The notes under the pieces were generated by a model, which did not search any database, was not told where the DNA came from, and saw only the letters and a program-made list of their open reading frames with translations. 8,834 nt of DNA from a virus (Duplodnaviria; Heunggongvirae; Uroviricota; Caudoviricetes), in IMG/VR virus record IMGVR_UViG_3300014515_000027, one strand, 5' to 3'. Both the position numbers and the translations under genes were made by a program. Shown here piece by piece: positions 7,552 through 7,909 of this stretch (the stretch's first letter is position 1; each line of letters opens with the position of its first letter).

Positions 7552-7565
7552 GCGGGTGCTTGAGG
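7552..7565 (+). promoter_or_regulatory. 5' element of the hok mRNA (tac-like), complementary to the 3' element at 7895-7909
   Basis: GCGGGTGCTTGAGG is the reverse complement of CCTCAA-c-GCACCCGC (7895-7909): 8 bp plus 6 bp with a one-nucleotide bulge. Confidence 0.5.
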
Positions 7566-7723
7566 CTATCTGTCTCAGGCATGAACACTGAAAGGCAGAT
7601 AGAGAAAAGCCCCAGTTAACATTTCGCGTCCTGCAAGACGCTTAACATTAATCTGAGGCCCAATCTATGTCTCACAAATGTAGGTTAGCCTCTTACGTGC
7701 CGAAAGGCAAGGGGAAGCAGGCT

Positions 7724-7845
7724 ATGAAGCAGCAAAAGGCGATGTTAATCGCCCTGATCGTCATCTGTTTAACCGTCATAGTGACGGCACTGGTAACGGC
7801 CAGACGGAGGTCGCTGTCTTCACAGCTTACGAACCTGAGGAGTAA
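7724..7845 (+). pseudogene. hok: hok/gef-family (HokD/RelF-like) toxin gene disrupted by an internal deletion and frameshift
   Basis: From the ATG at 7724 the frame gives MKQQKAMLIALIVICLTVIVTALVT (Hok N-terminus), then diverges into ARRRSLSS... The Hok C-terminus (N)GQTEVAVFTAYEPEE-stop is encoded from 7798 to 7845 in a different frame. The conserved RK-LCE-R-R core between the two parts is absent. The 71-aa track ORF 7667..7882 is the frameshifted read-through. Confidence 0.75.
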
Positions 7846-7894
7846 GAGACCTGGCGGGGGAGAAATCCCTCGCCACCTCTGATGTGTCAGGCAT

Positions 7895-7909
7895 CCTCAA
7901 CGCACCCGC
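7895..7909 (+). promoter_or_regulatory. 3' element of the hok mRNA (fbi-like), complementary to the 5' element at 7552-7565
   Basis: Direct complementarity as described for 7552-7565; lies just upstream of the terminator hairpin. Confidence 0.5.

What the first reader, a model, noticed from the sequence alone, without database searches (positions are those of the whole stretch)
7552..7909. Long-range 5'/3' complementarity in the hok transcript (tac/fbi-like)
GCGGGTGCTTGAGG (7552-7565) and CCTCAACGCACCCGC (7895-7909) can pair over 14 bp with a single bulge, about 340 nt apart. The upstream element sits at the predicted transcription start and the downstream one just before the terminator. This matches the fold-back mechanism known for hok mRNAs, where the 3' end pairs with the 5' end to keep the full-length mRNA translationally inert until 3' processing. 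Seeing it intact beside a broken toxin gene is notable.
Basis: partly seen in the sequence, partly recalled or inferred. Interest (0 to 1): 0.5.

Follow-up and report, generated by a model that had tools for sequence, protein, structure and literature searches.

The report
Known hok mRNA end-pairing (tac/fbi)
The two complementary stretches are the well-known end-to-end pairing that keeps the messenger RNA of a Hok toxin silent, found here in an ordinary prophage copy of the hok/sok toxin-antitoxin module whose toxin gene has a recent 34-base deletion.

Summary
7552-7565 and 7895-7909 pair over 14 bp with one bulge (C7901). RNAfold forms this helix in the minimum-energy structure, with pair probability about 1.0. 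It is the best partner for the 5' element anywhere in the window.

The locus is a hok/mok/sok type I toxin-antitoxin module, annotated hokD or MokW elsewhere. It sits in a lambdoid E. coli prophage, between queH and the DUF968/rusA/Q genes. The Rfam hok-leader model scores 120.5 bits, starting at 7554.

In 65 homologous mRNAs from Escherichia, Photorhabdus, Sodalis, Erwinia, Kluyvera and R1-type plasmids, the helix is kept: 77.5% of cells pair, against 39-58% when the partner is slid. One pair covaries clearly (U-A 27, C-G 32). The same 5' nucleotide also covaries with a nascent-transcript hairpin partner, the coupled pattern described for hok mRNAs.

Two corrections. The transcript probably starts at G7554, so about 12 of the 14 pairs are RNA. 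An intact regulator beside a broken toxin is not notable, because the flanks are 100% identical to genomes with an intact gene, so the deletion is recent.

Low interest.

The parts
7519..7547 (+). hok/mok promoter-like site: -35 TTGGCG (7519-7524), 17-nt spacer, -10 TAGAAT (7542-7547). It predicts +1 at about G7554.
   Evidence: Consensus scan. In all 64 homologous loci a -10-like hexamer (TAGAAT, TATAAT or TATGAT) sits at the same distance from the conserved 5' element. Function is inferred and no 5' end was mapped.
7554..7565 (+). tac (translational activator) element, GGGUGCUUGAGG, at the 5' end of the hok mRNA.
   Evidence: The Rfam RF01794 match starts at 7554. It pairs with 7895-7907 at probability 0.97-1.0. 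Conserved and covarying in 65 homologues.
7572..7582 (+). Partner of tac in the nascent-transcript (metastable) hairpin: mRNA nt 3-13 pair with nt 19-29.
   Evidence: The first 30 and 47 nt fold into this hairpin (-16.9 kcal/mol, z = -4.6). 86.3% of cells pair against 34-51% when slid, and 5 pairs change on both sides.
7607..7613 (+). ucb-like box AAGCCCC. It is the partner of tac once the 3' end is removed. In the full-length fold its CCCC (7610-7613) pairs with GGGG 7711-7714, just upstream of the hok AUG.
   Evidence: The consensus structure of RF01794 pairs GGG-GCUU with AAGCCCC. Removing 47 nt or more from the 3' end moves tac onto 7607-7613 (probability 0.8-0.95). The stem pairs in 94.3% of cells in homologues but does not vary.
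7603..7675 (-). Predicted Sok-type antisense RNA. It has a single-stranded 5' tail complementary to the mok start region, followed by a long hairpin and UUUUCUCU. The ends are approximate.
   Evidence: Minus-strand sequence. Fold -30 kcal/mol, z = -5.0. Placement is by analogy with Sok of R1 (own knowledge) and sokW (PMC8621323); it was not mapped.
7682..7710 (-). Predicted sok promoter: -35 TTGCCT (7710-7705), 17-nt spacer, -10 TAACCT (7687-7682).
   Evidence: Read. It falls below the threshold of the consensus scan. The corresponding columns are conserved in A4. Inferred.
7667..7882 (+). mok-hok reading frame, here frameshifted. The mok ATG is 7667-7669, preceded by GAGGC 7655-7659. The hok ATG is 7724-7726, in frame with mok. 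After Hok residue 25 the frame changes and reads past the original stop TAA (7843-7845) to 7880-7882.
   Evidence: ORF list. The intact allele encodes the 51-aa HokD-type protein, PF01848. The intact in-frame 70-aa Mok-Hok products are common in databases and are annotated MokW in phages.
7796..7799 (+). Junction of a 34-nt deletion that removes Hok codons 26-36 (RKDLCEVRLRT) plus one base. The exact position is ambiguous by 2 nt.
   Evidence: Alignment with NZ_CP032204.1. The junction is absent from 5,426 complete E. coli genomes, IMG/VR and JGI metagenome contigs. The frameshifted product is on record once, on a JGI/IMG contig of 8,834 nt.
7895..7907 (+). fbi (fold-back inhibitory) element CCUCAACGCACCC, with C7901 bulged. 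It starts 50 nt after the original hok stop.
   Evidence: An equivalent complement lies 45-57 nt after the hok stop in most homologues. Covariation with tac.
7914..7941 (+). Intrinsic terminator: stem AACCCGC-TTCG-GCGGGTT (7914-7931) followed by TTTGTTTTTTT.
   Evidence: Terminator scan. It folds as a separate hairpin in the MFE structure.

Best explanation
The two arms are the tac (5') and fbi (3') elements of a hok-family toxin mRNA. The module is a hok/mok/sok type I toxin-antitoxin cassette of the hokD/hokW type, carried in the early region of a lambdoid E. coli prophage.

Proposed mechanism: transcription starts at about G7554 and ends at the terminator, around 7941. While the RNA is being made, the 5' end is held in a local hairpin with 7572-7582. 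Once the 3' end is transcribed, the 5' end pairs with 7895-7907. This closes the roughly 390-nt mRNA into a compact form in which the mok and hok ribosome-binding regions are base-paired. That form is inert for translation and, according to the literature, for Sok binding.

Slow 3' exonucleolytic trimming then removes fbi. The 5' end moves to the ucb box 7607-7613, and the ribosome-binding region opens. The mRNA is then either bound by the antisense Sok RNA (predicted at about 7675-7603, minus strand) and destroyed, or translated if Sok is gone.

What is shown here: the complementarity, its thermodynamic dominance, the three alternative partners of the 5' end, conservation and covariation across genera, and family membership.

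What is inferred from the R1 system: the transcript ends, 3' processing, the effect on translation, and the Sok interaction.

In this allele a 34-nt deletion frameshifts hok after residue 25. The RNA switch is predicted to fold normally but no longer controls a full-length Hok.
For: - Helix formation: the helix is in the MFE and centroid structures (z = -7.4). Pair probabilities are 0.97-1.0 in both the deleted and intact mRNA.
- Specificity: fbi is the best partner of tac in the whole window, and 1-4 of 5000 shuffles do as well.
- Family membership: RF01794 matches 7554-7729 at 120.5 bits against a gathering score of 59. The intact allele is annotated hokD and carries PF01848. The same module occurs in 102 phage records, annotated MokW, HokD or host killer.
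- Position in homologues: a complement to each locus's own 5' end lies 45-57 nt after the hok stop in most of about 70 loci from Escherichia, Kluyvera, Photorhabdus, Pantoea, Erwinia, Sodalis, Enterobacter and R1-type plasmids.
- Pair counts on an unbiased MAFFT alignment of 65 mRNAs: 77.5% of cells pair against 39-58% when slid. The covariation score is 0.210 against at most 0.116. The pair at columns 6-476 is C-G 32, U-A 27, U-G 3, other 3.
- Register-corrected duplexes also show G-C to A-U exchange at tac nt 12. The distal half is rewritten on both sides in Sodalis.
- Coupled covariation: tac nt 4 also covaries with its metastable-hairpin partner (U-A 28, C-G 18).
- Strand of the pairing: G.U pairs outnumber A.C appositions 87 to 26, as expected for RNA pairing on the + strand.
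- Predicted switch: cutting 47 nt or more from the 3' end moves tac to 7607-7613. The unpaired probability of GGGG 7711-7714 rises from 0.02-0.08 to about 0.6.
- Literature: the tac/fbi, tac/ucb and metastable-hairpin pathway is described in PMC9841398.
Against: - Nothing here is experimental for this locus. The 5' and 3' ends, the processing and the translational effect are extrapolated from plasmid R1.
- A swap test (own against foreign 3' UTRs) separates only weakly, -20.0 against -17.7 kcal/mol. The elements are highly conserved, so most of the support is conservation plus a few covarying positions.
- The distal half of the helix is out of register for part of the MAFFT alignment. The per-column counts there understate pairing, and the corrected counts lean towards the structure.
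- In the predicted full-length fold the ucb CCCC pairs with GGGG before the hok AUG, while the mok GAGGC pairs with GCCUC 7688-7692. This differs in detail from the published wording for R1, where ucb sequesters the mok Shine-Dalgarno. The difference was not tested.
- A few homologues lack a recognisable fbi (L004, L018, L048, L050, L069).
Confidence: 0.93

Rival explanations
1. The arms are a DNA-level inverted repeat that marks the ends of a mobile hok/sok cassette, such as recombination or protein-binding sites. They would not be an RNA helix.
For: The module behaves as a discrete cassette. Many E. coli matches begin at window position 7534-7542 and end at 7932-7939, just outside the transcript. 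Arms that bind the same protein could also covary.
Against: The arms lie inside the homology block, not at its ends; the promoter and terminator lie outside them. G.U pairs on the + strand are 87, against 26 A.C appositions, and a DNA repeat would not favour them. The same 5' nucleotides covary with a second partner only 15-25 nt away and have an invariant third partner. That pattern fits alternative RNA folds, not paired DNA sites.
Confidence: 0.02
2. The complementarity is a chance match of the kind found many times in any 9-kb window.
For: There are 16 ungapped inverted-repeat pairs of 12-33 nt within 500 nt in this window. One of them (7904-7917 with 8281-8294) overlaps the 3' arm.
Against: It is the best partner of the 5' end in the window, and 1-4 of 5000 shuffles do as well. 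It sits at the same relative position in dozens of loci from several genera, with compensatory changes.
Confidence: 0.01
3. The helix is real, but the 34-nt gap in hok is an assembly or sequencing artefact of the source contig. On this reading the real locus is a fully functional toxin-antitoxin module.
For: The junction is absent from 5,426 complete E. coli genomes, IMG/VR and JGI metagenome contigs. The rest of the window is 100.0% identical to complete genomes. The frameshifted product is on record only once, on a contig of exactly the window's length.
Against: Other broken hok alleles exist in public data. P0122 carries a different internal deletion with the same out-of-frame tail. L046 and L044 carry frameshifts and L050 is scrambled. 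A real inactivating deletion is therefore plausible, and toxin genes are frequent targets of inactivation. The available tools cannot decide between the two.
Confidence: 0.3

Closest known systems
hok/mok/sok (parB) of plasmid R1: tac/fbi end-pairing of hok mRNA
   Same: - The same architecture is present: promoter, 5' tac, metastable hairpin partner, ucb, antisense Sok opposite the mok start, a Hok-family ORF, fbi about 50 nt after the stop, then the terminator.
- R1-type loci (L065, L067) align with the window along the whole mRNA.
- The mechanism is summarised in PMC9841398.
   Different: - Hok proteins are about 43% identical.
- tac is GGGUGC... here and GGCGC... in R1, with matching changes in fbi (GCACCC against GCGCC).
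- The helix here has a bulged C.
- mok is in frame with hok here and out of frame in R1 (own reading of the R1-type sequence).
- The module is carried by a prophage, not a plasmid.
- hok is broken by a 34-nt deletion.
hokW/sokW of Stx2 prophage Sp5 (E. coli O157:H7 Sakai) and other lambdoid-phage MokW/Hok loci
   Same: - It is a prophage-borne hok/sok in the early region of lambdoid phages.
- Phage records match the window module at 88-98% identity and annotate it MokW, HokD or host killer.
- hokW/sokW was shown to be a working toxin-antitoxin pair, and smaller hokW RNAs were seen (PMC8621323).
   Different: - That paper does not analyse tac/fbi; the terms do not occur in it.
- I did not compare the window directly with the Sp5 sequence.
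- The window allele is frameshifted.
Chromosomal hokC (gef) and hokD (relF) loci of E. coli K-12
   Same: - The toxins are closest in sequence: HokC is 80% identical, and PGAP names the intact allele HokD.
- hokC-type loci (L018-L027) share tac, ucb and the mok frame.
   Different: - K-12-type hokD matches cover only query positions 311-540, so they lack the 5' leader with tac, ucb and sok (H23-H26).
- Some hokC copies (L018) diverge shortly after the stop and have no fbi at the usual place.
- The window keeps every RNA element but has lost the toxin frame.
5'-3' long-distance locks in other type I toxin mRNAs (for example aapA3/IsoA3 of Helicobacter pylori)
   Same: It works alike: a full-length toxin mRNA is kept untranslatable by structure until its 3' end is processed. 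PMC9841398 cites this as a parallel.
   Different: The sequences and toxin family are unrelated. The window is not a member of that family.

Membership tests
[quoted passage not shown] | ORF encoding a roughly 50-aa Hok/Gef membrane toxin | tested here: inconclusive
   Residues 1-25 (MKQQKAMLIALIVICLTVIVTALVT) are intact. A 34-nt deletion then shifts the frame. The otherwise identical allele in NZ_CP032204.1 encodes a 51-aa HokD with PF01848. The window therefore carries a pseudogene of a true member.
[quoted passage not shown] | Conserved hok mRNA leader (tac, ucb, mok start region and Sok target) recognised by a covariance model | tested here: met
   RF01794 matches 7554-7729 on the + strand at 120.5 bits (gathering score 59, E = 9e-28), covering the full model 1-157.
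[quoted passage not shown] | 5' tac element complementary to a 3' fbi element just upstream of the terminator, kept by covariation | tested here: met
   folding; chance; homologues. 77.5% of cells pair against 39-58% when slid, and one pair is U-A 27, C-G 32.
[quoted passage not shown] | Alternative partners of tac: a metastable hairpin in the nascent transcript and the ucb stem in the 3'-shortened mRNA | tested here: met
   Metastable hairpin predicted and covarying. tac-ucb is predicted after 3' truncation, is present in the Rfam consensus and pairs in 94.3% of cells without variation. These are predictions, not probing.
[quoted passage not shown] | Upstream overlapping mok reading frame | tested here: met
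   An ATG at 7667 opens a frame that runs into hok. The intact in-frame 70-aa products are abundant in databases and are annotated MokW.
[quoted passage not shown] | cis-encoded antisense Sok RNA with its own promoter and terminator hairpin | tested here: inconclusive
   The minus strand has TTGCCT-17-TAACCT and a roughly 70-nt RNA with a single-stranded 5' tail plus hairpin and U-run. The -10 matches only 3 of 6 consensus bases and the promoter scan did not report it. There are no expression data.
[quoted passage not shown] | Slow 3' processing of full-length mRNA to a translatable, Sok-sensitive form, with RNase III cleavage of the duplex | not testable with these tools
   This needs northern blots or RACE after rifampicin. 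Only the thermodynamic consequence of truncation was modelled.

The most novel reading that the evidence does not exclude
Small deletions in one short, palindrome-rich stretch of hok (GAGG-AAAGA-CCTC-TGC-GAGG) may recur naturally. Two different internal deletions with the same out-of-frame tail are on record: the window, and P0122, which by my reconstruction is also 34 nt. They could produce toxin-null alleles that are kept because the still-intact hok leader and Sok RNA act on other hok copies in the same cell, as a decoy or cross-regulator. On this reading the alleles would not be simple decay.
Probability: 0.04. Interest if true: 0.35.

Novelty: already known. Interest (0 to 1): 0.1.

Why it matters
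The result matters little beyond correct annotation. It shows that this prophage hok copy carries the full set of RNA control elements described for plasmid R1. It also reproduces the published coupled covariation on a fresh set of genomes.

The practical value is threefold:
- It gives a clean annotation of the transcript and its elements in the window.
- It shows that the Rfam family named 'sok' actually matches the hok mRNA strand.
- It shows that the toxin frame is broken by a very recent, or possibly artefactual, 34-nt deletion. No biological meaning should be read into an 'intact regulator next to a dead toxin'.

Tried and rejected
A three-protein alignment worked.
- The swap test of each tac against foreign 3' UTRs separates only weakly: -20.0 against -17.7 kcal/mol, with shuffles at -12.8. 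tac is nearly invariant across the family. I therefore relied on per-column counts instead.
- The repeat finder does not list the tac/fbi pair, because the bulge splits it into 8 + 6 ungapped bases.
- Searches for the deletion junction found nothing in E. coli complete genomes, IMG/VR or JGI metagenome contigs.
- The look-up of encoding contigs found no place for the frameshifted product or for P0122. The origin of the deletion stays open.
- The DNA-level inverted-repeat (cassette end) reading was considered and rejected, on the G.U excess and the coupled covariation.
- I first placed the hok ATG at 7725. The translation error corrected it to 7724-7726.
- The 'mok SD' unpaired probabilities printed are offset by one base (they cover 7654-7657). 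I did not use them. The hok-side values (7711-7717) are correctly placed.

Full report
**1. The observation**

GCGGGTGCTTGAGG lies at 7552-7565 and CCTCAACGCACCCGC at 7895-7909. They pair as 8 + 6 bp around a bulged C7901.

RNAfold of 7552-7941 forms the helix in both the MFE and the centroid structure (-167.8 kcal/mol, z = -7.4 against shuffles). In the partition function every pair from G7554-C7907 to G7565-C7895 has probability 0.97-1.0.

I scanned the 5' arm against every 30-nt stretch of both strands of the window. Only its own antisense and the fbi site came up as the best partners. Shuffled 3' UTRs reach the same energy in 1 of 5000 trials (14 nt) or 4 of 5000 (12 nt).

Ungapped inverted repeats of 12-33 nt within 500 nt are frequent in this window, with 16 pairs. 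The complementarity alone would therefore be weak evidence. Position and comparative data carry the argument.

**2. What the locus is**

- Rfam RF01794 matches 7554-7729 on the + strand at 120.5 bits, against a gathering score of 59.
- A promoter-like site, TTGGCG-17-TAGAAT, ends at 7547. A terminator-like hairpin with a T-run lies at 7914-7941.
- The region matches thousands of E. coli genomes, where it is annotated hokD.
- In NZ_CP032204.1 it lies in a lambdoid prophage. On one side are dicB, ydaT-family, replication genes and queH. On the other are DUF968, rusA and the Q antiterminator.
- 102 phage records carry the module, annotated MokW, HokD or host killer protein.
- The intact product is a 51-aa Hok/Gef protein (PF01848).
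- The window is a hok/mok/sok cassette of the prophage type. hokW/sokW of Sp5 is the experimentally studied example (PMC8621323).
- A recent survey found hok genes enriched in prophages (bioRxiv 10.1101/2025.08.07.668861).

**3. The broken toxin**

Against the intact allele, the window lacks 34 nt between 7796 and 7799. This removes Hok codons 26-36 plus one base. The frame then runs past the original TAA (7843-7845) to 7882.

Otherwise the whole 8,834-nt window is 100.0% identical to NZ_OZ547117.1 and NZ_LR898874.1.

The junction is absent from all 5,426 complete E. coli genomes, from IMG/VR and from JGI metagenome contigs. The frameshifted 71-aa product is on record once, from JGI/IMG, on a contig of 8,834 nt. 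The window is therefore a whole public contig, and the deletion is in that record.

The lesion is either very recent or an assembly artefact. In both cases the neighbouring RNA elements have had no time to decay, so their integrity is not remarkable.

Other broken hok copies turned up among 80 homologous loci (L044, L046, L050, and a second copy in L036). A second, different internal deletion with the same out-of-frame tail is in the protein collection (P0122).

**4. Comparative test of the pairing**

A scan of one genome per species returned 80 loci, with Hok identity from 40 to 98%. nhmmer anchored the mRNA 5' end in 73 places.

In most loci the best duplex partner of the locus's own 5' end lies 45-57 nt after the hok stop. 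Examples:

| Group | tac (5') | fbi (3') |
|---|---|---|
| Window type | GGGUGCUUGAGG | CCUCAACGCACCC |
| Photorhabdus | GGGCGCUUGAGA | UCUCAAGCGCCC |
| Pantoea | GCGGGCGCUUGAGG | CCUUAAGCGCCCGC |
| Sodalis | GGGUGCUCUGGAUCU | AGAUCUGCGAGCACCC |
| R1 type | GGCGCUUGAGG | CUGAAGCGCC |

I made a MAFFT alignment of 65 whole mRNAs without reference to structure. On it the window's 14 pairs give:
- 77.5% of cells paired, against 39-58% with the 3' partner slid by 1-3 columns.
- A covariation score of 0.210, against at most 0.116 for the slid controls.
- 52 cells changed on both sides, against 28 ± 8 in shuffles.

The clearest pair is U7557-A7904: C-G 32, U-A 27, U-G 3, other 3. Four core pairs are nearly invariant.

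The outermost two pairs (7552-7909 and 7553-7908) are unpaired in 40 and 30 of the 65 sequences.

The -10 box sits at a fixed distance in all families. The known R1 +1, from my own knowledge of the R1 sequence GGCGCUUGAGG, aligns with G7555. Together with the poor pairing of the outermost two pairs, this puts the window's +1 at G7554 or G7555.

The distal half of the helix is out of register in the alignment for sequences that lack the bulge. Register-corrected duplexes show G-C 21 and A-U 6 at tac nt 12, though these counts lean towards the structure.

G.U pairs outnumber A.C appositions 87 to 26. This fits RNA pairing on the + strand rather than a DNA-level repeat.

**5. The other partners of the 5' end**

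- The first 30-47 nt fold into a hairpin of nt 3-13 with nt 19-29 (-16.9 kcal/mol).
- This helix is 86.3% paired in homologues, against 34-51% when slid. Five of its pairs change on both sides.
- tac nt 4 again switches between U-A (28) and C-G (18) with this second partner.
- This is the coupled covariation expected if one 5' element must pair in turn with several partners. It matches the metastable structure described for R1 (PMC9841398).
- Removing 47 nt or more from the 3' end moves the 5' end onto AAGCCCC at 7607-7613 (probability 0.8-0.95). The unpaired probability of GGGG 7711-7714, just before the hok AUG, rises from 0.02-0.08 to about 0.6.
- The same tac-ucb stem is the first helix of the Rfam consensus. 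It is 94% paired but does not vary in homologues, so it neither supports nor contradicts the structure.
- On the minus strand, TTGCCT-17-TAACCT precedes a roughly 70-nt RNA. That RNA has a free 5' tail opposite the mok AUG and a terminator-like hairpin (z = -5.0). This is the expected Sok-type antitoxin, and it is inferred only.

**6. Mechanism, and what remains inferred**

The best-supported reading is the hok folding pathway described for R1:
1. A nascent hairpin holds the 5' end during transcription.
2. tac/fbi end-pairing then locks the full-length mRNA.
3. 3' trimming removes fbi.
4. tac moves to ucb and the ribosome-binding region opens.
5. Sok binds and the duplex is destroyed, or Hok is made if Sok is lost.

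Shown here: complementarity, thermodynamic preference, conservation and covariation, family membership.

Not shown: transcript ends, processing, effect on translation, Sok expression.

One detail differs from the published wording for R1. In the predicted full-length fold the ucb CCCC pairs with the GGGG before hok, while the mok GAGGC (7655-7659) pairs with GCCUC (7688-7692). I did not test which of these matters.

**7. Rivals**

- Chance is excluded by the comparative data.
- A DNA-level cassette-end repeat is unlikely. The arms lie inside the conserved block, G.U pairs are favoured, and the 5' arm covaries with a second, nearby partner.
- Whether the deletion is real or an artefact cannot be decided with these tools.

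**8. Verdict**

The mechanism and its phylogenetic conservation are textbook knowledge for the hok family. The locus is an ordinary, very common prophage module. Novelty: already known. Interest: low.

Noticed in passing
window 7796-7799; protein P0122: The 34-nt hok deletion is found in no other searched collection. The same 90% protein cluster holds P0122 (source 'gem'), which carries a different internal hok deletion. By my reconstruction it is also 34 nt, shifted about 9 nt upstream, and it gives the same out-of-frame tail. The deleted stretch is rich in GAGG/CCTC inverted repeats. This could be a slippage hot spot or an assembly artefact.
   Followed up: partly
window 1009-1060 (- strand): A full-length DicF antisense RNA (RF00039, 77 bits against a gathering score of 48) lies next to the dicB region. 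This fits a Qin/Rac-like lambdoid prophage.
   Followed up: no
window 7554-7729 (+ strand): The Rfam family named 'sok antitoxin' (RF01794) matches the hok mRNA strand, and its consensus structure begins with the tac-ucb stem. In practice it models the hok leader, not the antisense Sok RNA, which lies on the opposite strand at about 7675-7603.
   Followed up: partly
window 7534-7542 and 7932-7939: Many E. coli matches to the module start and stop at these positions, just outside the promoter -10 and the terminator. The hok/sok unit therefore behaves as a discrete cassette placed in different prophage contexts.
   Followed up: no
L011, L021, L028, L065, L066, L067; hit H59: Near-identical E. 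coli-type or R1-type hok loci sit on contigs labelled Veillonella parvula MAG, Acinetobacter idrijaensis, Xanthomonas pisi, Ferruginibacter MAG, Streptomyces morookaense and Oscillibacter MAG. One is in an 'Actinobacillus phage' record. Most are short contigs, so these are likely contamination or mis-binning.
   Followed up: no
L018:854-968 (hokC-type locus, E. coli ECDA1023): This hokC copy diverges from its relatives about 20 nt after the stop (…CATAAGCGCTAACTTAAGGGTTG…) and has no fbi at the usual place. From memory the inserted sequence looks like an IS186 end, as reported for K-12 hokC. I did not check this with a tool.
   Followed up: no
L036:556-965 and L036:1185-1468; other Photorhabdus loci L032-L049: Photorhabdus genomes carry many hok loci, including two in tandem about 630 nt apart. 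The second has an in-frame shortened Hok but perfect tac/fbi complementarity.
   Followed up: no
window 4054-4120: A 33-nt inverted repeat, 79% complementary with arms 1 nt apart, contains repeated TTGACCC/GTCAAA motifs. It lies inside the helix-turn-helix replication-protein gene. This resembles an iteron-type origin inside a lambdoid O-like gene.
   Followed up: no
window 7904-7917 and 8281-8294: A 14-nt inverted repeat, 86% complementary, overlaps the 3' arm of the finding and reaches into the next ORF. It is of the size expected by chance in this window.
   Followed up: no
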